Below, in pieces: positions 1 to 14,509 of a stretch of DNA of 64,000 nt. The stretch lies in NCBI RefSeq assembly GCF_003790525.1, contig NZ_CP033635.1. One strand, given 5' to 3'. The notes under the pieces are model-generated. The model saw only the letters and a list, made by a program, of their open reading frames with translations, had not been told where the DNA came from and did no database searches. The stretch is from Escherichia coli (GTDB lineage: Bacteria > Pseudomonadota > Gammaproteobacteria > Enterobacterales > Enterobacteriaceae). Made by a program: the position numbers and the translations under genes. Positions within the stretch are counted from its first letter, which is position 1. Each line of letters begins with the position of its first letter.

Positions 1-75
1 GGCGTAAACGCCTTATCTGGCCTACGGGAGCATTTGTAGGCCTGATAAGACGCGGCAAGCGTCGCATCAGGCTTG
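1..75. repeat. REP/BIME-like palindromic repeats (ggcgtaaacgccttatctggcctac ... gacgcggcaagcgtcgcatcaggc)
   Basis: Matches the E. coli REP consensus family (GCCKGATGCGRCG... and ...CGCCTTATCCGGCCTAC types); extragenic, downstream of ubiG. Confidence 0.75.
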
Positions 76-107
76 GCTCGGTCGTCGGATGAATCCAAAC
101 AACAACC

Positions 108-830
108 TCACTTATTCTGCGTATGCAGCATATAGTTCACATCAACGCCGGGGCCGAGCTTAAAGGAATTAGTTATAGGGTTGTAATGCAGCCCGGTCAT
201 ATGCCGTTCTTTAAGACTGGTCTGATCCACCCAGCCCAGCAATTCTGCCGGTTTAATAAACTTCTTCACATCATGTGTACCTTTAGGCACCATGCGCAAA
301 ATATATTCAGCACCAACCACCGCCATCAGCCATGACTTGCCGTTGCGGTTGAGCGTCGAGAAAAAGACATCGCCGCCCGGTTTCACCAGTTGCGCACAGG
401 CTCTGACCACTGACTGAGGATCGGGGACGTGCTCCAGCATCTCCATGCAGGTCACCACATCATACTGCCCGGCATGTTTTGCCGCGTGCTCTTCCACGGT
501 TTCCTGCACGTAATCCACCTGAATGCCGCTTTCCAGTGCGTGCAGTTTTGCCACCTGCAATGGCTCAAAGCCCATATCCAGACCGGTCACCGTCGCACCT
601 TCGCGCGCCATACTCTCGGCCAGAATGCCGCCGCCACAACCGACATCGAGCACCTTTTTGCCAAATAAACCGCCAGCACGCTCGGCAATATAGCCCAGAC
701 GCAGCGGGTTAATACGGTGCAGCGGTTTGAACTCACCTTCCAGATCCCACCAGCGGGAGGCGACGGCTTCAAATTTAGCGATCTCTTCGTGGTCTACGTT
801 ATTGTTTTTAAGGAGATTTTCAGTGTTCAT
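108..830 (-). CDS. ubiG: Bifunctional 3-demethylubiquinone-9 3-O-methyltransferase UbiG (240 aa)
   Basis: Same length as E. coli UbiG and near-identical over residues ~11-240 as I recall it; SAM-binding motif [11 protein letters not shown]; divergent from gyrA as in K-12. Confidence 0.95.
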
Positions 831-907
831 TGTTACATAAGAGTCTATAAAGGTTGTCGGGCAGTATAGCAGGTGAAAAGTGCCAGTGTTATAAACTCAT
901 TCACATT

Positions 908-1606
908 TTACTGTGTAGATAACGAGAGAATTTTTCGTGCGCGCTCGGTAAATCCACTACTTACGTGATGAGTAATAAAATTACAAACACCTTCAACGTT
1001 ATTATTTTTTAGCATATCTAAAATAGTCGCATGGCCACGATTTGAATTGGTGATATATTCCGTAGTGAAATCCAGTCGATAACGGATAGCAAGTAAACGT
1101 GCGGATATCAATTGGTGTGCCTGAGAGATGTATTTATTATCAGCGTATTTAACAAACACATAATGAAAATCATGATCCAGTTTAAGATAAGCCTGAGTAT
1201 CGCGCTCGGCATTAATTTTTGCTGATTTTGATAGTATACTATTTAGTTCAATGATGACATTGTTTGCATTCTTTTCCATTGCTTCACTAATTGCACCCTG
1301 CTCCAGAATTACTCGCATTTTTATGAGGTCATTAATATCTTTATCTGTTACGGAAAAAACGAATGTTCCGCTGCGTGGAATGATATTGATCAGATTTTCA
1401 TTGTGACTAAGTAAAATAAAAGCTTCACGAATAGGTGTTTTACTTACCGCCAGAATATTCGAAAGTTCATTTTCACTTATCGGTTGCCCAAGACTGAGAT
1501 CGCCATGAATTATCATATCCCTGATTTTTTCTTTGATGACCTGTGTTACGGATTTTGGTATCTCAATTGATATGTGACTTAAGTCACGTTTCGCTTTATC
1601 TCTCAT
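908..1606 (-). CDS. GntR-family (FadR/FCD-type) transcriptional regulator, 232 aa
   Basis: N-terminal winged-HTH typical of GntR (ENELSNILAVSKTPIREAF) with a C-terminal helical FCD-like domain; strongly AT-rich codon usage; no equivalent between ubiG and gyrA in K-12 as I recall. Confidence 0.7.
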   Translation of the reverse strand: MRDKAKRDLSHISIEIPKSVTQVIKEKIRDMIIHGDLSLGQPISENELSNILAVSKTPIREAFILLSHNENLINIIPRSGTFVFSVTDKDINDLIKMRVILEQGAISEAMEKNANNVIIELNSILSKSAKINAERDTQAYLKLDHDFHYVFVKYADNKYISQAHQLISARLLAIRYRLDFTTEYITNSNRGHATILDMLKNNNVEGVCNFITHHVSSGFTERARKILSLSTQ

Positions 1607-1670
1607 TCCTTTGCCCCTTATTAAGCTGCTGGTCCATTATATGTAATCATTTTATCAATGAAGGTATCTA

Positions 1671-1753
1671 ATATATCAGATATGACAAAAATGATATATC
1701 TTATTGTTGTAGCTTAGTGTTTCAATCAATGATCAAGCTGATATATCAGATAT
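1671..1753. promoter_or_regulatory. Divergent promoter region with two exact 13-bp direct repeats ATATATCAGATAT (1671-1683 and 1741-1753); candidate operator for the adjacent GntR regulator
   Basis: Exact 13-mer repeated 70 bp apart, with extended ~20-bp similarity (ctaatatatcagatatgaca / ctgatatatcagatataaca), lying between the divergently oriented regulator and transporter genes. Confidence 0.4.
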
Positions 1754-1843
1754 AACACATCACCTTTTGAACTGGATTATTTTTTACGTAATATCCACTT
1801 CGGGCAGTACTCTTATTCATTGAACCACAAAAGGTGAAACAAA

Positions 1844-3172
1844 ATGAGCAGTCCTCAGAAAGATTTGTATGAAGCCATTTCTATTGTGAAAAGGAAGATT
1901 ATTCCGTTAGCATTTATTCTGTATTTTTTTAACTATATGGATCGTGTTAACATCGGATTTGCCGCTTTACGCATGAATGAATCCCTTGGTATTACACCAG
2001 AGGATTTTGCTAATATATCTTCAATATTTTTTGTGTCCTATTTGATTTTTCAAATTCCGAGCAGTATTGGATTGCAAAAGTTAGGTGCAAGAAAATGGAT
2101 TAGCGCCATTATTGTTGGTTGGGGAACAGTAACAACGTTAATTTTCTTTGCCAAAGACACCCAGCATATATTGCTCGCTCGGGTCTTTTTGGGAATATTT
2201 GAAGCGGGGTTTTTCCCTGGCATGGTTTACTACCTGGCATGTTGGTTCCCGGCGCGTGAACGTGGAAAAGTGAATAGCTTTTTTATGTTATCAATCGCAG
2301 TTGCATCTGTGCTGGCGGCACCAATGTCTGGTTGGATTATTGAACATATGAATACCGGTAACTATGAAGGATGGCGCTGGCTTTTTGCTATTGAAGGCAT
2401 TCCTACGGTGTTATTGGGGGCGCTGACCTTTTATTTACTGCCAGATCGTCCGGAAAAAGCCCGCTGGCTTACACCATCGCAAGTCACCGCATTGGTCGAT
2501 AAACTTAATTCTGATAACGAAAAAGCCGCAGCATTAAATAAAAATACAAATGCATCTTTTCTGTCAATCATTAAAAATCCAGTATTACTACAACTCTCAT
2601 TTGCTTATATGTTTATTCAGGCAGCGGCGTTGGCGGCAAATTACTGGTTACCGGGGTTGGTTAAAGGATTTTCATCGGATTTCACAGATACCGATGTCGG
2701 TTTGATTATGAGTATTCCGTTTATTTTCGCGATGTTCAGTATGCCATTATGGGGATGGCATTCCGATAAAAAGAATGAAAGGAAATGGCATGCCGCACTA
2801 CCGATGTTGGTTGCAGGTTGCGGTTTTTTAATGATCGCACTTGTACCTTCGATGACGCTGCGCATGATGGGATTAACATTATACGGTGTAGGCATTCTCA
2901 GTTATTACGGTCCGTACTGGGCTTTACCCTCAGCTTTACTTTCACCATCAGGCCTGGCAATCAGTATTGCGTTTATTAACTCTTGTTCAAGTTTGGGTGG
3001 TTTTCTGATCAATAAATCACTTGGCTATGTTTCTACACATTATGGAGCCACGGGGATATTTATTGTTGAGGCGATTCTTTGCTTTATCGCCGTAGCTATT
3101 TTGTTATCAATGAAAATTGATAATAAAAAAGATAACGCCCAGAAAGACAATGTTATTTCACATGCTAAATAA
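1844..3172 (+). CDS. MFS transporter, anion:cation symporter (ACS) family, sugar-acid permease-like (DgoT/ExuT/GudP-like), 442 aa
   Basis: About 12 predicted hydrophobic segments; N-terminal ACS-type motif NYMDRVNIGFA; AT-rich codon usage. Confidence 0.75.
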   Translation: MSSPQKDLYEAISIVKRKIIPLAFILYFFNYMDRVNIGFAALRMNESLGITPEDFANISSIFFVSYLIFQIPSSIGLQKLGARKWISAIIVGWGTVTTLIFFAKDTQHILLARVFLGIFEAGFFPGMVYYLACWFPARERGKVNSFFMLSIAVASVLAAPMSGWIIEHMNTGNYEGWRWLFAIEGIPTVLLGALTFYLLPDRPEKARWLTPSQVTALVDKLNSDNEKAAALNKNTNASFLSIIKNPVLLQLSFAYMFIQAAALAANYWLPGLVKGFSSDFTDTDVGLIMSIPFIFAMFSMPLWGWHSDKKNERKWHAALPMLVAGCGFLMIALVPSMTLRMMGLTLYGVGILSYYGPYWALPSALLSPSGLAISIAFINSCSSLGGFLINKSLGYVSTHYGATGIFIVEAILCFIAVAILLSMKIDNKKDNAQKDNVISHAK

Positions 3173-3184
3173 ATGAGGTTATTT

Positions 3185-4387
3185 ATGAAGATTACATCTG
3201 TAGAAATTTTTGACTGCGAACTCAAAAAAAGAGATCAAACTATGGCCTCTTATAATCCAGTACTTATTCGGGTTAATACCGATGCTGGAATAAGTGGTGT
3301 TGGCGAAGTAGGATTAGCCTATGGTGCAGGTGCAAAATCTGGTGTTGGTATTATCAGAGATTTAGCCCCTCTCATCATTGGTGAAGATCCGTTGAACATT
3401 GAGAAGATTTGGGAATTCCTCTTCAGGAAAACATTTTGGGGAATGGGCGGTGGTAATGTTTTTTACGCAGGTATGAGCGCTATTGATATTGCCTTATGGG
3501 ATATTAAAGGTAAATATTTAAACGTGCCGGTTTATCAACTACTGGGGGGAAAGACTAACGATAAATTGAGAACTTACGCCAGTCAGTTACAATTTGGTTG
3601 GGGCGAAAAAAGGCAAATATTAGTAACGCCTGAAGAGTATGCAGAGGCAGCGCGTGCCGCTATTGCAGAAGGTTATAATGCGATAAAAGTTGATCCGCTT
3701 GAAATCGATCTGCATGGCGGCGATTGTGTCTTTCAGAACAAAAATAGAAATTACTCTGGCTTATTACTGGCCGAACAATTAAAAATGGGCGAGGCAAGAA
3801 TTGCCGCTATGCGTGAAGCAATGGGCGACGATGCTGATATTATTGTAGAGATTCATTCTCTTCTAGGAACAAATTCAGCGATCCAGTTTGCCAAAGCAAT
3901 AGAGAAATATCGTATTTTTCTCTATGAGGAGCCAATTCATCCATTAAATTCGGATAATATGCAGAAAGTTGCCCGTTCAACATCGATTCCGATAGCAACA
4001 GGTGAGCGTTCTTATACTCGCTGGGGATATCGTGATTTACTGGAAAAACAATCAATTGCGGTAGCTCAACCTGATTTGTGTCTTTGTGGTGGCATTACAG
4101 AGGGAAAGAAAATTTGTGATTATGCCAATATATATGACACAACCGTTCAGGTACATGTTTGTGGCGGGCCTGTTTCAACAGTAGCGGCGCTGCATATGGA
4201 AACTGCAATACCTAACTTTATTATTCATGAACATCATACCAATGCGATGAAAGCATGTATTCGGGAACTTTGTACTTACGATTATCAACCCGAGAATGGC
4301 TATTATGTCGCGCCAGAGTTGCCTGGGCTTGGTCAGGAATTAAACGATGAAATCGTACAACAATATCTTGCCTATGTGATCAAATAA
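3185..4387 (+). CDS. Enolase-superfamily (mandelate racemase/muconate lactonizing enzyme-like) acid-sugar dehydratase, ~400 aa
   Basis: N-terminal capping-domain and barrel motifs typical of the MR/MLE superfamily (AIDIALWDIKGK, PVYQLLGG, later EEP and HxxE-type regions); the ATG at 3185 follows a GAGG Shine-Dalgarno; an alternative ATG at 3173 abuts the transporter stop. Confidence 0.7.
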   Translation: MKITSVEIFDCELKKRDQTMASYNPVLIRVNTDAGISGVGEVGLAYGAGAKSGVGIIRDLAPLIIGEDPLNIEKIWEFLFRKTFWGMGGGNVFYAGMSAIDIALWDIKGKYLNVPVYQLLGGKTNDKLRTYASQLQFGWGEKRQILVTPEEYAEAARAAIAEGYNAIKVDPLEIDLHGGDCVFQNKNRNYSGLLLAEQLKMGEARIAAMREAMGDDADIIVEIHSLLGTNSAIQFAKAIEKYRIFLYEEPIHPLNSDNMQKVARSTSIPIATGERSYTRWGYRDLLEKQSIAVAQPDLCLCGGITEGKKICDYANIYDTTVQVHVCGGPVSTVAALHMETAIPNFIIHEHHTNAMKACIRELCTYDYQPENGYYVAPELPGLGQELNDEIVQQYLAYVIK

Positions 4388-4414
4388 CGGCGATTTATAT
4401 ACTCTAAATAATTC

Positions 4415-4675
4415 GAGTTGCAGGAAGGCGACAAGCGAGTGACAAATTCGTCAGGAACGAATTTGCCCAGCCGCAGGCTGGCCTTCGGTGAGAGACATGG
4501 ATGTCTCTCATTAATCCCCAGGAGCTTACATAAGTAAGTGACTGGGGTGAGCGACAAATCCGCATGGAGCGGATTTGAACGCTGCTTGCAGCGGCCCCGT
4601 AAGGGGTGAGGTCCATGGATGGGCCGAATAACCCGCAGACGCAGCACATGCAACTTGAAGTATGACGAGTATAGC
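4415..4675. repeat. ERIC (enterobacterial repetitive intergenic consensus / IRU) element, long form with internal insertions
   Basis: Contains the ERIC core aatccccaggagcttacataagtaagtgactggggtgagcg and characteristic ends (gagttgcaggaaggcg ... acatgcaacttgaagtatgacgagtata); the ORFs called here (4372-4653, 4404-4649, 4619-4855) are taken as spurious. Confidence 0.8.
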
Positions 4676-4833
4676 CATTATTTCTGGTGTTTATTGAGGC
4701 ACAGGAAGCGTGTTGCGGTCTTTGTTCCTTTGTCGTTCACCGCCAGCGCGATGTGTGCTGGCGGTGGGGTAAAACGCAGTAGATCTACAGCGCCCGGAAG
4801 CCTGCATTACGTTTACCCGTCCGCAAGCGATTG

Positions 4834-4842
4834 TGTTATAAT
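4834..4842 (+). promoter_or_regulatory. Candidate gyrA promoter extended -10 element (TGtTATAAT)
   Basis: TGn + TATAAT hexamer about 45 bp upstream of the gyrA ATG. Confidence 0.5.
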
Positions 4843-4886
4843 CTCCGACCTTTGAATCCGGGATACAGTAGAGGGATAGCGGTTAG

Positions 4887-7514
4887 ATGAGCGACCTTGC
4901 GAGAGAAATTACACCGGTCAACATTGAGGAAGAGCTGAAGAGCTCCTATCTGGATTATGCGATGTCGGTCATTGTTGGCCGTGCGCTGCCGGATGTCCGA
5001 GATGGCCTGAAGCCGGTACACCGTCGCGTACTTTACGCCATGAACGTACTAGGCAATGACTGGAACAAAGCCTATAAAAAATCTGCCCGTGTCGTTGGTG
5101 ACGTAATCGGTAAATACCATCCCCATGGTGACTTGGCGGTTTATAACACGATCGTCCGTATGGCGCAGCCATTCTCGCTGCGTTACATGCTGGTAGACGG
5201 TCAGGGTAACTTCGGTTCCATCGACGGCGACTCTGCGGCGGCAATGCGTTATACGGAAATCCGTCTGGCGAAAATTGCCCATGAACTGATGGCCGATCTC
5301 GAAAAAGAGACGGTCGATTTCGTTGATAACTATGACGGCACGGAAAAAATTCCGGACGTCATGCCAACCAAAATTCCTAACCTGCTGGTGAACGGTTCTT
5401 CCGGTATCGCCGTAGGTATGGCAACCAACATCCCGCCGCACAACCTGACGGAAGTCATCAACGGTTGTCTGGCGTATATCGATGATGAAGACATCAGCAT
5501 TGAAGGGCTGATGGAACACATCCCGGGGCCGGACTTCCCGACGGCGGCAATCATTAACGGTCGTCGCGGTATTGAAGAAGCTTACCGTACCGGTCGTGGC
5601 AAGGTGTATATCCGCGCCCGTGCGGAAGTGGAAGTTGACGCCAAAACCGGGCGTGAAACCATTATCGTCCACGAAATTCCGTATCAGGTGAACAAAGCTC
5701 GCCTGATCGAAAAAATTGCGGAACTGGTAAAAGAAAAACGCGTGGAAGGTATCAGCGCGCTGCGTGACGAGTCTGACAAAGACGGTATGCGCATCGTGAT
5801 TGAAGTGAAACGCGATGCGGTCGGTGAAGTGGTGCTCAACAACCTCTATTCCCAGACCCAGTTGCAGGTTTCTTTCGGTATTAACATGGTGGCATTGCAC
5901 CATGGTCAGCCGAAGATCATGAACCTGAAAGACATCATCGCGGCGTTTGTTCGTCACCGCCGTGAAGTGGTGACCCGTCGTACTATTTTCGAACTGCGTA
6001 AAGCGCGCGATCGTGCTCATATCCTTGAAGCATTAGCCGTCGCGCTGGCAAACATTGACCCGATCATCGAACTGATCCGTCATGCGCCGACGCCTGCAGA
6101 AGCGAAAACGGCGCTGGTTGCTAATCCGTGGCAGCTGGGCAACGTTGCCGCGATGCTGGAACGAGCCGGCGACGATGCTGCGCGTCCGGAATGGCTGGAG
6201 CCAGAGTTCGGCGTGCGTGACGGTCTGTACTACCTGACCGAACAGCAAGCTCAGGCGATTCTGGATCTGCGTTTGCAGAAACTGACCGGCCTTGAGCACG
6301 AAAAACTGCTCGACGAATACAAAGAGCTGCTGGATCAGATCGCGGAACTGTTGCGTATTCTTGGTAGCGCCGATCGTCTGATGGAAGTGATCCGCGAAGA
6401 GCTGGAGCTGGTTCGTGAACAGTTCGGTGACAAACGTCGTACTGAAATCACCGCCAACAGCGCAGACATCAACCTGGAAGATCTGATCACCCAGGAAGAT
6501 GTGGTCGTGACGCTCTCTCACCAGGGCTACGTTAAATATCAGCCGCTTTCTGAATACGAAGCGCAGCGTCGTGGCGGGAAAGGTAAATCTGCCGCACGTA
6601 TTAAAGAAGAAGACTTTATCGACCGACTGCTGGTGGCGAATACCCACGACCATATTCTGTGCTTCTCCAGCCGTGGTCGCGTCTATTCGATGAAGGTTTA
6701 CCAGTTGCCAGAAGCTACTCGTGGCGCGCGCGGTCGTCCGATCGTCAACCTGCTGCCGCTGGAGCAGGACGAACGTATCACCGCGATCCTGCCGGTGACC
6801 GAGTTTGAAGAAGGCGTGAAAGTCTTCATGGCCACCGCTAACGGGACCGTGAAGAAAACCGTCCTCACCGAATTCAACCGTCTGCGTACCGCCGGTAAAG
6901 TGGCGATCAAACTGGTTGATGGCGATGAGCTGATCGGCGTTGACCTGACCAGCGGCGAAGATGAAGTAATGCTGTTCTCCGCCGAAGGTAAAGTGGTGCG
7001 CTTTAAAGAGTCTTCTGTCCGTGCGATGGGCTGCAACACCACCGGTGTTCGCGGTATTCGTTTAGGCGAAGGCGATAAAGTCGTCTCTCTGATCGTACCT
7101 CGTGGTGATGGCGCAATCCTCACCGCAACGCAGAACGGTTATGGTAAACGTACCGCAGTGGCGGAATACCCAACCAAGTCGCGTGCGACGAAAGGGGTTA
7201 TCTCCATCAAGGTTACCGAACGTAACGGTTTAGTGGTTGGCGCGGTGCAGGTAGATGACTGCGACCAGATCATGATGATCACCGATGCCGGTACGCTGGT
7301 ACGTACTCGCGTTTCAGAAATCAGCATCGTGGGCCGTAACACCCAGGGCGTGATCCTCATCCGTACTGCGGAAGATGAAAACGTAGTGGGTCTGCAACGT
7401 GTTGCTGAACCGGTTGACGAGGAAGATCTGGATACCATCGACGGCAGTGCCGCGGAAGGGGACGATGAAATCGCTCCGGAAGTGGACGTTGACGACGAGC
7501 CAGAAGAAGAATAA
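4887..7514 (+). CDS. gyrA: DNA gyrase subunit A (875 aa) carrying QRDR substitutions S83L (TTG, 5133-5135) and D87N (AAC, 5145-5147)
   Basis: Full-length match to E. coli GyrA; QRDR reads [15 protein letters not shown] where wild type is HPHGDSAVYDTIVRM; catalytic Tyr122 context AMRYTE is intact. Confidence 0.97.
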
Positions 7515-7534
7515 TTTTACGTCTTCATGCCAAA

Positions 7535-7556
7535 AGGGAGATATCTCCCTTGTTTG
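7535..7556 (+). terminator. Rho-independent terminator candidate downstream of gyrA
   Basis: Perfect 16-bp palindrome AGGGAGATATCTCCCT followed by a T-rich tract. Confidence 0.55.
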
Positions 7557-7662
7557 AATTGAAAAGTCCAGGCTGCAAAGTCTGGGCTTTTGTCGTATTA
7601 GGGCGCGGTAAAGTTTTGCTGTGCTCGTAAAAAATGGCTGGCTTTACACAAGGAATGTGGCA

Positions 7663-14509
<6,847 letters not shown>

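What the first reader, a model, noticed from the sequence alone, without database searches (positions are those of the whole stretch)
831..4886. AT-rich three-gene module (GntR/FCD regulator, ACS-family MFS permease, enolase-superfamily dehydratase) in the gyrA–ubiG divergent intergenic region
In K-12, as I recall, gyrA and ubiG are divergent neighbours separated by only ~150 bp. Here they are ~4.05 kb apart. The intervening DNA encodes a divergently arranged regulator (908-1606, -) and a transporter–dehydratase pair (1844-4387, +), with visibly AT-rich codon usage unlike the flanking genes, and an ERIC repeat at the gyrA-proximal edge. The gene set suggests a self-contained acid-sugar (aldonate/aldarate-type) uptake and dehydration unit of unknown substrate. 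The insertion leaves ubiG only 77 bp downstream of the regulator gene on the same strand, so ubiG expression could be affected by read-through. A -10-like TATACT sits at 863-868 on the minus strand.
Basis: partly seen in the sequence, partly recalled or inferred. Interest (0 to 1): 0.7.

Follow-up and report, generated by a model that had tools for sequence, protein, structure and literature searches.

The report
Old Salmonella-type acid-uptake gene trio
Between ubiG and gyrA this E. coli carries a regulator, a transporter and a dehydratase for an unidentified organic acid; it is the counterpart of Salmonella genes STM2273-2275 at the same site, occurs in about 2.6% of complete E. coli genomes, and is an ordinary accessory metabolic module rather than a recent foreign insertion.

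Summary
The coordinates, gene families, low G+C content (36-41% against 53-54% in the flanks), the ERIC repeat and the TATACT hexamer are all confirmed. K-12 and four other empty sites have a constant 146-bp spacer.

The three genes occur in 141 of 5,426 complete E. coli genomes. In all 140 with an intact locus they lie between ubiG and gyrA.

The reading as an insertion is only partly right. The segment is colinear with Salmonella ubiG-STM2275-STM2274-STM2273-gyrA. It has diverged about as much as the neighbouring core gene ubiG (proteins 88-92% identical, dN/dS about 0.03). It has no integrase, transposase or flanking repeats. It is therefore an old resident of this locus, and the common empty allele looks like the derived state.

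The same trio (GntR/FCD regulator, MFS transporter, enolase-superfamily dehydratase) recurs in unrelated neighbourhoods in Budviciaceae, Morganella, Gilliamella, Enterobacter and Burkholderiales. It usually carries the same palindromic operator, CTGATATATCAG, which is present twice here.

The dehydratase is 92% identical to PDB entries 4E6M and 2GL5, both named only "putative dehydratase", and keeps a complete catalytic residue set. The substrate remains unknown, and no NCBIfam equivalog cut-off is reached.

The RefSeq "frameshifted" label on the regulator is most likely an annotation artefact.

Interest is modest.

The parts
808..830 (-). The first 23 nt of ubiG, which are specific to the island allele. 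UbiG starts [10 protein letters not shown] here and MNAEKSPVNH in K-12.
   Evidence: Similarity to K-12 ends at 807. Carriers and non-carriers differ at 10-11 of these 23 nt. All 5 carrier sequences are identical to each other here. Three-way alignment.
831..907 (-). Spacer between the regulator and ubiG. It holds a ubiG promoter-like site: -35 ATAACA at 892-887 and a TG-extended -10 TATACT at 868-863.
   Evidence: promoter scan; no terminator-like site. Conserved in Salmonella. No significant RNA structure.
908..1606 (-). GntR/FCD-family transcription regulator of 232 aa. It is the orthologue of Salmonella STM2275 and the presumed repressor of the module.
   Evidence: Pfam GntR 22-83 (model positions 3-64 of 64) and FCD 93-216 (1-124 of 125). 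88% amino-acid identity to Salmonella, dN/dS 0.026. Homologues in other taxa are 220-233 aa. RefSeq labels it 'frameshifted', by comparison with an over-long 294-aa Salmonella model.
1607..1843 (.). Divergent control region with two copies of a palindromic operator-like box (core CTGATATATCAG) at 1668-1687 and 1738-1757.
   Evidence: Direct repeat 70 bp apart. These are the only matches in the 64-kb window: 4 strand hits against 0.16 expected, reached by 0 of 100 shuffles. The same motif lies upstream of the homologous cassettes in Salmonella, L042, Budvicia, Limnobaculum, Gilliamella and Enterobacter, and is weaker in Caballeronia and Cupriavidus.
1844..3172 (+). MFS transporter of 442 aa, of the anion:cation-symporter type. 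It is the orthologue of STM2274 and the presumed importer of the acid substrate.
   Evidence: Pfam MFS_1. The best NCBIfam hits are HpaX and the D-galactonate-transporter subfamily, both below cut-off. The only solved relative is DgoT, 6E9N/6E9O. Relatives at 35-50% identity carry automatic 'ACS family tartrate transporter' names. 89% identity to Salmonella.
3185..4387 (+). Enolase-superfamily dehydratase of 400 aa. It is the orthologue of STM2273.
   Evidence: Pfam MR_MLE_N and MR_MLE_C. 92% identical over the full length to PDB 4E6M/2GL5, 'putative dehydratase'. K168, D170, E222, H224, E248, E274, D297, H324 and E349 are invariant in 26 homologues of 57-87% identity. Below every NCBIfam equivalog cut-off. 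GAGG lies 6 nt before the ATG at 3185.
4398..4673 (.). ERIC repeat in a 276-bp long form: a 127-bp core plus internal segments of 71 bp and 78 bp. It is a secondary, polymorphic passenger and not part of the gene module.
   Evidence: Four states occur at this one site among carriers. Copies occur elsewhere in nearly every E. coli genome. Folds at -128.5 kcal/mol, z = -9.6.
4674..4847 (+). Island-allele DNA upstream of gyrA. It contains a GC-rich hairpin (4738-4768), the conserved TTTACC -35-like hexamer and TGTGTTATAAT (4832-4842), and the linked SNPs at 4843 and 4845.
   Evidence: Similarity to Salmonella begins at 4802.

Best explanation
This is a small inducible catabolic entry module for an organic (sugar-type) acid. 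It is an old resident of the ubiG-gyrA gap, not a recent arrival.

Proposed mechanism.
1. The GntR/FCD regulator binds the two CTGATATATCAG boxes in the 237-bp divergent control region. It thereby represses its own gene and the transporter-dehydratase operon.
2. Binding of the acid, or of its dehydration product, to the FCD domain releases the regulator from the DNA.
3. The MFS transporter, a proton-coupled anion symporter related to DgoT, imports the acid.
4. The Mg2+-dependent enolase-superfamily enzyme abstracts the proton alpha to the carboxylate and eliminates the beta-hydroxyl. The likely base is the His324-Asp297 pair, the likely acid is His224, and the likely metal ligands are Glu222, Glu248 and Glu274.
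5. The product is a 2-keto-3-deoxy acid, which host core enzymes finish off.

Evolution. The module is the orthologue of Salmonella STM2273-STM2275 at the same chromosomal position. It has been under purifying selection in both lineages. It survives in a minority of E. coli, including phylogroup F strains such as SMS-3-5, IAI39 and CE10, and a B1 ST300 STEC strain. The common 146-bp empty allele is most likely the derived state.

What is shown and what is inferred. Shown: the families, synteny, divergence, selection, distribution, and the operator motif with its conservation. Inferred: repression, the inducer, the direction of transport, the catalytic roles of the residues, and the direction of change (loss rather than gain).
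For: - Gene families and complete domains.
- 92% identity to the solved structures 4E6M and 2GL5.
- The catalytic residue set is invariant across 26 homologues.
- DgoT is the only solved relative of the transporter.
- The stop of the MFS gene and the start of the dehydratase gene are 12 nt apart, with a GAGG in between.
- The operator boxes are unique in 64 kb and conserved upstream of homologous cassettes in distant taxa.
- The same trio recurs in different gene orders and unrelated neighbourhoods.
- The same locus exists in Salmonella, with a colinear alignment at 79.5% identity.
- dN is 0.045-0.072 and dN/dS about 0.03 for the three genes, against dN 0.060 for ubiG.
- The Salmonella copy is also AT-rich.
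- Junction-proximal DNA of the island allele is closer to Salmonella than to K-12.
- 141 of 5,426 genomes carry it, always at this locus.
- Carriers have different ubiG haplotypes, 25-30 differences per 700 nt, and some of these (13E0780, the window) lie closer to a non-carrier than to any other carrier.
- Strain backgrounds come from PMC11537424 (SMS-3-5: F, ST354) and PMC7354573 (13E0780: B1, ST300).
Against: - The substrate is not known. No NCBIfam equivalog cut-off is met: galactonate dehydratase scores 249 against 311, and ManD scores 203 against 550.
- No paper in the searchable library assigns a function to STM2273-2275.
- No downstream kinase or aldolase is linked to the trio in any genome I examined, so the metabolic fate of the product is unexplained.
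- RefSeq flags the regulator as frameshifted.
- Two carriers have IS5 or IS1 disruptions.
- The low G+C content makes H-NS silencing plausible. This was not tested.
- Divergence between the island and empty alleles right at the junctions (44% identity over about 90 nt) is far deeper than normal E. coli diversity. Simple loss within the species does not explain this by itself.
- Absence of the orthologue from other genera is not established. The one genome-contig scan missed even Salmonella.
Confidence: 0.7

Rival explanations
1. The segment is a recent horizontal insertion of foreign AT-rich DNA into the E. coli ubiG-gyrA intergenic region, and it may disturb ubiG expression.
For: - G+C is 36-41% against 53-54% in the flanks.
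- Only 2.6% of E. coli genomes carry it.
- Homologous cassettes elsewhere are clearly mobile. In Morganella the cassette lies next to an integrase, and in Enterobacter it lies among IS fragments.
Against: - The same genes lie in the same order at the same locus in Salmonella.
- Their divergence from Salmonella equals that of ubiG, with saturated synonymous sites.
- Diversity within E. coli reaches 1.2%, and the module sits on different flanking haplotypes and in different phylogroups.
- There is no integrase, transposase, tRNA or flanking repeat.
- The promoter elements of ubiG and gyrA are retained inside the island allele.
Confidence: 0.07
2. The gene content and function are the same, but the E. 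coli copy was not retained vertically. It was re-imported by homologous recombination from a diverged Escherichia-like lineage, with crossovers in ubiG near 807 and in the gyrA promoter near 4832-4847. It then spread among E. coli lineages in the same way.
For: - There is a sharp switch from 95-98% identity to about 44% at 807/808, and island-specific SNPs at 4843 and 4845.
- The first 23 nt of ubiG are identical in all carriers although their ubiG bodies differ by 25-30 of 700 nt.
- The module is present in both phylogroup F and phylogroup B1.
Against: - No donor lineage was identified.
- Island diversity within E. coli (up to 1.2%) is already of species depth.
- Tight linkage of junction-proximal variants to a large insertion/deletion is also expected under long-term vertical persistence, because recombination cannot resolve within the heterology.
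Confidence: 0.3
3. The module is a silent or decaying relic in E. coli. On this view the regulator is a pseudogene, the genes are silenced, and the module has no present function.
For: - RefSeq annotates the regulator as 'frameshifted' in every E. coli record inspected.
- Strain TH9F11 has an IS5 in the dehydratase gene, and OZ546943 has an IS1-associated deletion.
- The AT-rich composition is typical of H-NS targets. This point rests on general knowledge and was not tested.
Against: - The 232-aa ORF contains complete GntR and FCD domains and matches the length of homologues, which are 220-233 aa.
- The frameshift lies only in an N-terminal extension of the 294-aa Salmonella model. That extension would run through both operator boxes.
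- GenBank submitters annotate the 232-aa protein as intact.
- dN/dS is about 0.03 for all three genes.
- 139 of 141 carriers have an uninterrupted segment.
Confidence: 0.08
4. The substrate is not a classical C5/C6 sugar acid. It is instead a small hydroxy-acid such as L-threonate or a tartrate isomer, or an amino-acid-derived acid. Its dehydration product would be a central metabolite or one step from one. That would explain why the cassette never carries a kinase or an aldolase.
For: - The trio travels alone in at least 8 unrelated genomic contexts.
- Relatives of the transporter carry automatic 'ACS family tartrate transporter' names.
- In Oxalobacter the dehydratase lies next to an amino-acid-type ABC transporter and a tautomerase.
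- An aminotransferase gene lies nearby in Morganella and a PLP-enzyme gene in Gilliamella.
Against: - The names are automatic and derive from one Agrobacterium protein.
- S. Typhimurium, which carries the module, is reported not to ferment meso-tartrate. Its D- and L-tartrate use is explained by other loci (bioRxiv 10.1101/2023.12.08.570695).
- S. Typhimurium SL1344 respires m-tartrate poorly (PMC4372345).
- The nearest characterised enzyme families are hexonate dehydratases.
Confidence: 0.15

Closest known systems
Salmonella enterica STM2273-STM2274-STM2275. The dehydratase is solved as PDB 2GL5 and 4E6M, both named 'putative dehydratase'.
   Same: - Same three genes, same order and orientation, and same chromosomal position between ubiG and gyrA.
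- Proteins are 88-92% identical.
- Same two operator boxes and same ubiG promoter-like site.
- Also AT-rich.
   Different: - Nucleotide identity is about 80%.
- The Salmonella regulator is annotated as 294 aa.
- The spacer between the dehydratase gene and gyrA differs apart from an independent ERIC-like element.
- The module is common in Salmonella records but occurs in only 2.6% of complete E. coli genomes.
- No function has been published for either copy in the library searched.
- The link between the PDB entries and STM2273 rests on an exact sequence match to Salmonella contigs and on my own recollection of the PDB titles.
E. coli dgoRKADT, the D-galactonate operon: DgoR (GntR/FCD), DgoT (ACS-family MFS) and DgoD (enolase superfamily)
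   Same: - The same three protein families are combined: an FCD-type repressor, a proton-coupled acid-sugar MFS symporter and a Mg2+-dependent dehydratase.
- DgoT is the only solved relative of the transporter.
- Galactonate dehydratase is the best-scoring NCBIfam model for the enzyme.
- From my recollection of the DgoD sequence, its motif pattern (Asp/Glu-x-His, Glu, Glu, Asp...His, Glu) resembles that of this enzyme. This was not aligned here.
   Different: - There is no kinase (DgoK) and no aldolase (DgoA).
- The enzyme scores 249 bits against the 311-bit cut-off, and the transporter scores 270 against 395.
- The first metal ligand is Glu here rather than Asp (the comparison with DgoD is from my own knowledge).
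- The operator sequence is different.
Other acid-sugar dehydratases of the mandelate-racemase subgroup: ManD/RspA, RhmD (YfaW), the archaeal gluconate/galactonate dehydratase and TalrD/GalrD
   Same: - Same fold and superfamily.
- Similarity extends over the full length (E-values 1e-30 to 1e-60).
   Different: - All scores are far below the curated cut-offs.
- The enzyme belongs to a separate cluster together with the uncharacterised structural-genomics targets 2O56, 2OX4 and 2POZ.
ERIC (enterobacterial repetitive intergenic consensus) elements
   Same: - The 127-bp core contains the central inverted repeat GTGAATCCCCAGGAGCTTACAT / AAGTAAGTGACTGGGGTGAGCG. I recognise these as the ERIC primer sequences from my own knowledge.
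- There are many copies per genome.
- The element is strongly structured when folded as RNA.
   Different: Here the element carries two internal segments of 71 and 78 bp, and it is polymorphic among carriers. It is a passenger and not part of the module.

Membership tests
Enolase superfamily, mandelate-racemase subgroup | An N-terminal capping domain plus a C-terminal barrel domain (Pfam MR_MLE_N and MR_MLE_C) | tested here: met
   MR_MLE_N at residues 19-121 (E = 2.4e-22) and MR_MLE_C at 152-389 (E = 1.5e-58). 92% identical to the solved structures 4E6M and 2GL5.
Enolase superfamily, mandelate-racemase subgroup | Three carboxylate metal ligands, a His-Asp catalytic pair, and a conserved Glu after the last strand | tested here: met
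   E222, E248/E249, E274, D297, H324 and E349, plus K168, D170 and H224, are invariant in 26 homologues of 57-87% identity. Assigning these residues to their structural positions rests on knowledge of the motifs, not on inspection of a structure.
D-galactonate dehydratase DgoD (NCBIfam NF010624, equivalog) | Whole-protein score at or above the curated cut-off of 311 bits | tested here: not met
   249.3 bits.
D-mannonate dehydratase ManD (NF043051), and the D-galactonate dehydratase family subfamily (NF011654) | Score at or above the curated cut-off (550 and 430 bits) | tested here: not met
   203.4 and 196.2 bits.
Any acid-sugar dehydratase | Demonstrated dehydration of a defined substrate | not testable with these tools
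   No activity data were found for STM2273 or its E. coli orthologue.
GntR family, FadR/FCD subfamily of regulators | An N-terminal winged-helix GntR domain followed by a C-terminal FCD ligand-binding domain | tested here: met
   the GntR match covers model positions 3-64 of 64 and the FCD match covers 1-124 of 125. The solved relatives are GntR-family regulators.
GntR family, FadR/FCD subfamily of regulators | A cognate palindromic operator near the regulated promoters | tested here: inconclusive
   Two CTGATATATCAG boxes are unique in 64 kb and conserved across taxa upstream of homologous cassettes. Binding was not tested.
ACS (anion:cation symporter) family of MFS, D-galactonate transporter subfamily TIGR00893 | Score at or above the cut-off of 395 bits | tested here: not met
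   269.7 bits. HpaX scores 270.7 against 615. General MFS_1 membership is met. The alignment to DgoT covers residues 21-420.
Mobile genomic island | An integrase or transposase, a tRNA or att target, and flanking direct repeats | tested here: not met
   No such ORF lies in 831-4886. There are no flanking repeats. No tRNA was noted in the region. The site is the same in every carrier.
Orthologue of Salmonella STM2273-2275 | Conserved gene order and flanks, with divergence comparable to the neighbouring core genes | tested here: met
ERIC repeat | A roughly 127-bp imperfect palindrome with a conserved central inverted repeat, many copies per genome, and an intergenic location | tested here: met
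   The 127-bp form is seen in CE10 and the extended form here. There are 2-16 matching places per E. coli genome. The fold has z = -9.6. The consensus sequence is recalled from my own knowledge.

The most novel reading that the evidence does not exclude
The trio may be a complete, portable one-enzyme pathway. The dehydratase would carry out a reaction not yet described in the enolase superfamily, on a small hydroxy-acid of 2R,3S configuration; L-threonate and a tartrate-like diacid are the candidates I considered. Its product would be a central metabolite or one transamination or cleavage step from one. This would explain why the cassette spreads without any kinase or aldolase across Enterobacterales, Orbales and Burkholderiales, and why the enzyme family has fungal members. 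In addition, the presence/absence polymorphism at ubiG-gyrA, together with its linked variants in the UbiG N-terminus and the gyrA promoter, may have persisted in Escherichia since about the split from Salmonella.
Probability: 0.12. Interest if true: 0.55.

Novelty: new member of a known kind. Interest (0 to 1): 0.3.

Why it matters
The enzyme has had crystal structures for years, yet I found no published function for it in the library searched. The minority of E. coli that carry the module (for example SMS-3-5, IAI39 and CE10) give a second genetic background, besides Salmonella, in which to look for the substrate. The conserved operator and the FCD regulator provide a direct handle for ligand screening.

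If the acid turns out to be available in the gut, or to be generated during inflammation, the module could contribute to niche differences between Salmonella or phylogroup F E. coli and other E. coli.

The locus is also a clean example of a low-G+C 'island' that is not recent.

In addition, carriers have a different UbiG N-terminus and a different sequence around the supercoiling-sensitive gyrA promoter. The effect of these differences on expression is unknown.

None of this would overturn current understanding.

Tried and rejected
- The genome-contig scan with the dehydratase found Budviciaceae and distant relatives but missed Salmonella. It therefore cannot be used to claim absence from other genera. 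The Salmonella locus was recovered instead by exact look-up of the PDB sequence.
- Literature searches for STM2273, STM2274 and STM2275, for the PDB codes, for ubiG + gyrA + mandelate racemase, and for enolase superfamily + GntR + MFS returned only incidental mentions.
- I considered meso-tartrate as the substrate, given the tartrate-transporter-like names and a GalD-like residue set. I marked it down for two reasons. S. Typhimurium is reported not to ferment meso-tartrate, and its D- and L-tartrate use maps to other loci. SL1344 also respires m-tartrate poorly.
- I rejected the 'pseudogene regulator' reading after checking domain completeness and tracing the origin of the 294-aa reference.
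- A search for flanking repeats or mobile-element genes found none.
- The plasmid search found only Salmonella records of about 500 kb labelled as plasmids, plus distant relatives. There is no evidence that a plasmid carries the module.
- Rfam found nothing above threshold in 1-8000.
- I did not predict a structure, because a crystal structure at 92% identity already exists.
- I did not assign phylogroups to all 141 carriers. No tool here does this, so only named reference strains could be placed from papers.

Full report
**1. What is in the sequence**

The ORF list gives the following layout:
- ubiG at 108-830 (-)
- a 232-aa ORF at 908-1606 (-)
- a 442-aa ORF at 1844-3172 (+)
- a 400/404-aa ORF ending at 4387 (+)
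- gyrA at 4887-7514 (+)

Pfam assigns the three inner proteins as follows. The 232-aa protein has GntR and FCD domains, both complete. The 442-aa protein matches MFS_1. The third matches MR_MLE_N and MR_MLE_C.

The dehydratase most likely starts at 3185. The MFS gene stops at 3172, and a GAGG lies 6 nt before that ATG. RefSeq and the Salmonella and PDB sequences start at the same position.

G+C is 35.6%, 40.1% and 40.8% for the three genes, against 52.8% for ubiG and 54.0% for gyrA.

**2. Accessory status and the empty site**

A megablast of 880-4400 against 5,426 complete E. coli genomes finds the segment in 141. There is one chromosomal copy per genome, 98.8-100% identical to the window. With the flanks included, 140 genomes cover at least 80% of 1-5400, so the segment always sits between ubiG and gyrA.

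K-12, Sakai and three other non-carriers all have the same 146-bp spacer.

Similarity between the window and K-12 stops at 807 and resumes at 4832.
- the first 23 nt of ubiG, so that UbiG begins [10 protein letters not shown] instead of MNAEKSPVNH
- everything upstream of the gyrA extended -10, plus two SNPs just after the -10 (4843 and 4845), which separate all five carrier sequences from all five non-carriers

Outside the island the window is colinear with K-12 at 97-97.8% identity.

**3. It is the E. coli counterpart of a Salmonella locus**

The dehydratase is 92% identical over its full length to PDB 4E6M and 2GL5, both named 'putative dehydratase'. Exact look-up of that sequence returns very many contigs with the order nrdB-nrdA-ubiG-GntR/FCD-MFS-dehydratase-gyrA-rcsC. 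An annotated Salmonella enterica record shows the same arrangement. Three papers call STM2273 a dehydratase, STM2274 an MFS transporter and STM2275 a regulator, without giving a function.

Window 121-4386 aligns with Salmonella in one block at 79.5% identity.

| Gene | Amino-acid identity | dN | dN/dS |
|---|---|---|---|
| regulator | 88% | 0.064 | about 0.03 |
| MFS transporter | 89% | 0.072 | about 0.03 |
| dehydratase | 92% | 0.045 | about 0.03 |
| ubiG (neighbour) | 91% | 0.060 | 0.022 |

Synonymous sites are saturated in all four genes. The Salmonella copy is equally AT-rich, at 38-43% against 55-56% in its flanks.

In the short homologous stretches next to the junctions, the island allele is closer to Salmonella than to K-12. 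Identity is 66% against 44% on the ubiG side and 80% against 66% on the gyrA side.

There is no integrase, transposase or flanking repeat, and no evidence of a plasmid carrier.

Together these results say that the module was at this locus at about the time Escherichia and Salmonella separated. The empty allele is more likely the derived state. Low G+C here marks an old acquisition, not a recent one.

**4. Distribution within E. coli**

Carriers include the following strains:
- SMS-3-5, phylogroup F, ST354 (PMC11537424)
- IAI39 and CE10 (IAI39 is ST62; that CE10 is also ST62, and that ST62 falls in phylogroup F of the current scheme, is from my own knowledge)
- the bovine STEC strain 13E0780, phylogroup B1, ST300 (PMC7354573)

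The ubiG bodies of four carriers differ from one another at 25-30 of 700 positions. Those of 13E0780 and the window lie closer to a non-carrier than to any other carrier, while the 23 junction-proximal nucleotides are identical in all carriers.

The island has therefore been in the species long enough for its flanks to be reshuffled, or it has moved between lineages by homologous recombination. I cannot tell these apart. The very deep divergence of the two alleles right at the junctions keeps re-import from a diverged Escherichia lineage open as a rival explanation.

**5. Is the module intact?**

RefSeq marks the regulator 'frameshifted' in every E. coli record I opened. I think this is an annotation artefact, for these reasons:
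- The 232-aa ORF contains complete GntR and FCD domains.
- Homologues elsewhere are 220-233 aa.
- The Salmonella reference is a 294-aa ORF that runs upstream through both operator boxes only because no stop codon happens to occur there.
- GenBank submitters annotate the 232-aa protein as intact.

Only two carriers are disrupted. One has an IS5 in the dehydratase gene, and one has an IS1-associated deletion.

**6. How it probably works**

The 237-bp divergent control region holds two 20-nt boxes 70 bp apart, at 1668-1687 and 1738-1757, with the palindromic core CTGATATATCAG. The motif occurs nowhere else in the 64-kb window: 4 strand hits against 0.16 expected, reached by none of 100 shuffles.

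The same motif lies upstream of the homologous cassettes in Salmonella, a third enterobacterial lineage (L042), Budvicia, Limnobaculum, Gilliamella and Enterobacter. Weaker versions occur in Caballeronia and Cupriavidus.

One box overlaps the predicted start region of the regulator gene (promoter-like site at 1725-1698). The other lies just upstream of a conserved TTGAAC-16 nt-TAATAT upstream of the transporter gene, which I identified by reading the sequence.

I infer a ligand-released FCD repressor that controls both transcription units.

The transporter's only solved relative is the D-galactonate:H+ symporter DgoT.

The enzyme keeps K168, D170, E222, H224, E248, E274, D297, H324 and E349 invariant across 26 homologues. 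That is a full metal-binding and acid/base set of the type seen in galactonate dehydratase. The expected chemistry is Mg2+-assisted abstraction of the alpha-proton followed by elimination of the beta-hydroxyl, which gives a 2-keto-3-deoxy acid.

**7. What the substrate might be**

No curated NCBIfam cut-off is reached. Galactonate dehydratase scores 249 against 311, the gluconate/galactonate enzyme 239 against 750, and ManD 203 against 550. The nearest solved relatives (2O56, 2OX4, 2POZ) are also unnamed.

The trio recurs as a unit, in different gene orders and unrelated neighbourhoods, and never with a kinase or an aldolase:
- between gltIJKL and lnt in Budvicia
- in Caballeronia
- next to an integrase in Morganella
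- in Gilliamella
- in Cupriavidus
- with three tandem dehydratase paralogues in Pleomorphomonas
- among IS fragments in Enterobacter

The product must therefore feed into widespread core enzymes, or it is itself close to central metabolism.

Relatives of the transporter carry automatic 'ACS family tartrate transporter' names. That is a weak lead. Reports that S. Typhimurium does not ferment meso-tartrate, and that it uses other loci for D- and L-tartrate, argue against a tartrate isomer. I leave the substrate open.

**8.

The 77-bp spacer has no terminator-like site and no significant structure, so read-through from the regulator into ubiG is physically possible. However, ubiG has its own TG-extended -10 (TATACT, 868-863) with a -35-like ATAACA. 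This site is conserved in Salmonella, and the -10 is conserved in K-12 as well. Salmonella has kept the same layout. Disturbance of ubiG is therefore unlikely.

On the gyrA side, the -35-like TTTACC and the extended -10 are retained in the island allele, with a different spacer and two linked SNPs.

**9. The ERIC element**

The ERIC element (4398-4673) is a later passenger. Among carriers this one site shows four states:
- no ERIC
- a 127-bp ERIC
- the 127-bp ERIC plus a 78-bp internal segment
- the 127-bp ERIC plus that segment and a further 71-bp segment (this window and 30 other genomes)

**10. Verdict**

It is an old, syntenic orthologue of an uncharacterised Salmonella locus and not a recent insertion.

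It belongs to a familiar kind of system, in which an FCD repressor, an acid transporter and an enolase-superfamily dehydratase work together, as in the dgo operon. Its substrate is unknown.

It is of modest interest. It is useful as a lead for assigning a function to an orphan enzyme, and as an example of an old presence/absence polymorphism.

Noticed in passing
window 5133-5135 and 5145-5147 (gyrA codons 83 and 87): GyrA has Leu83 and Asn87 ([11 protein letters not shown]). This is the classic double substitution linked to fluoroquinolone resistance; the wild type is Ser83/Asp87 by my own knowledge. The K-12 record used for comparison (NZ_CP010444.1) itself has Gly87.
   Followed up: partly
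window 4398-4673; also L006 6509-6650, L048 and L007: Among island carriers, the ERIC site downstream of the dehydratase gene occurs in four nested states: absent, 127 bp, 127 + 78 bp, and 127 + 78 + 71 bp. The last state is the one in this window and is shared with SMS-3-5 and 29 other genomes. It is a stepwise series of internal gains (or losses) at a single locus.
   Followed up: partly
window 4843 and 4845: Two SNPs immediately after the gyrA -10 hexamer (TATAATCTCC against TATAATTTGC) are completely linked to the island in the 10 sequences compared. Salmonella has the K-12 form. This region is known to matter for the supercoiling response of gyrA. The effect of the SNPs was not tested.
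   Followed up: no
window 808-830: Carriers encode a UbiG with a different N-terminus ([10 protein letters not shown] against MNAEKSPVNH). Codons 1-4 match Salmonella, and codons 5-8 carry AT-ward changes.
   Followed up: partly
window 108-807 (ubiG body): ubiG is unusually polymorphic among E. coli, with up to 32 differences in 700 nt (4.6%) between strains. The rest of the window differs from K-12 by about 2.2-2.9%.
   Followed up: no
window 908-1650; RefSeq records NC_017646.1, NZ_CP020106.1, NZ_CP028741.1 and NZ_CP025048.1: RefSeq annotates the regulator as a frameshifted pseudogene of 743 nt. The cause appears to be the Salmonella reference protein WP_000944714.1 (294 aa), whose N-terminal extension runs through the operator region.
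   Followed up: yes
window 4738-4768: A GC-rich hairpin with a 13-bp perfect stem (-28 kcal/mol for the 61-nt stretch folded, z = -3.9) and no U-tract lies between the ERIC and the gyrA promoter. It is present in all carriers. Its role is unknown; it might act as a barrier to read-through into gyrA.
   Followed up: partly
window 39-100 (-): A match to Rfam naRNA4 (a REP-derived nucleoid-associated RNA) lies between yfaL and ubiG. It scores 39.2 bits, below the gathering score of 59.5.
   Followed up: no
L045 7001-10742 (Pleomorphomonas) and L047 (Oxalobacter aliiformigenes): In Pleomorphomonas, three tandem paralogues of the dehydratase lie between the MFS gene and the GntR gene. In Oxalobacter, the dehydratase lies next to an amino-acid-type ABC transporter, a tautomerase and a UxaA/GarD-family dehydratase.
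   Followed up: no
Homologue list, (P0048, P0070, P0071, P0082, P0102): The dehydratase family has fungal members at 60-66% identity (Penicillium, Talaromyces, Knufia, Aspergillus, Kwoniella). This is unusually close for a comparison between bacteria and fungi.
   Followed up: no
L042 (Logan SRR33902047 contig, 3,699 bp): A third lineage of the same trio has the same gene order (dehydratase 87% identical, regulator 71%) and the same operator boxes, but different flanks that are neither ubiG nor gyrA. The organism is unknown.
   Followed up: partly
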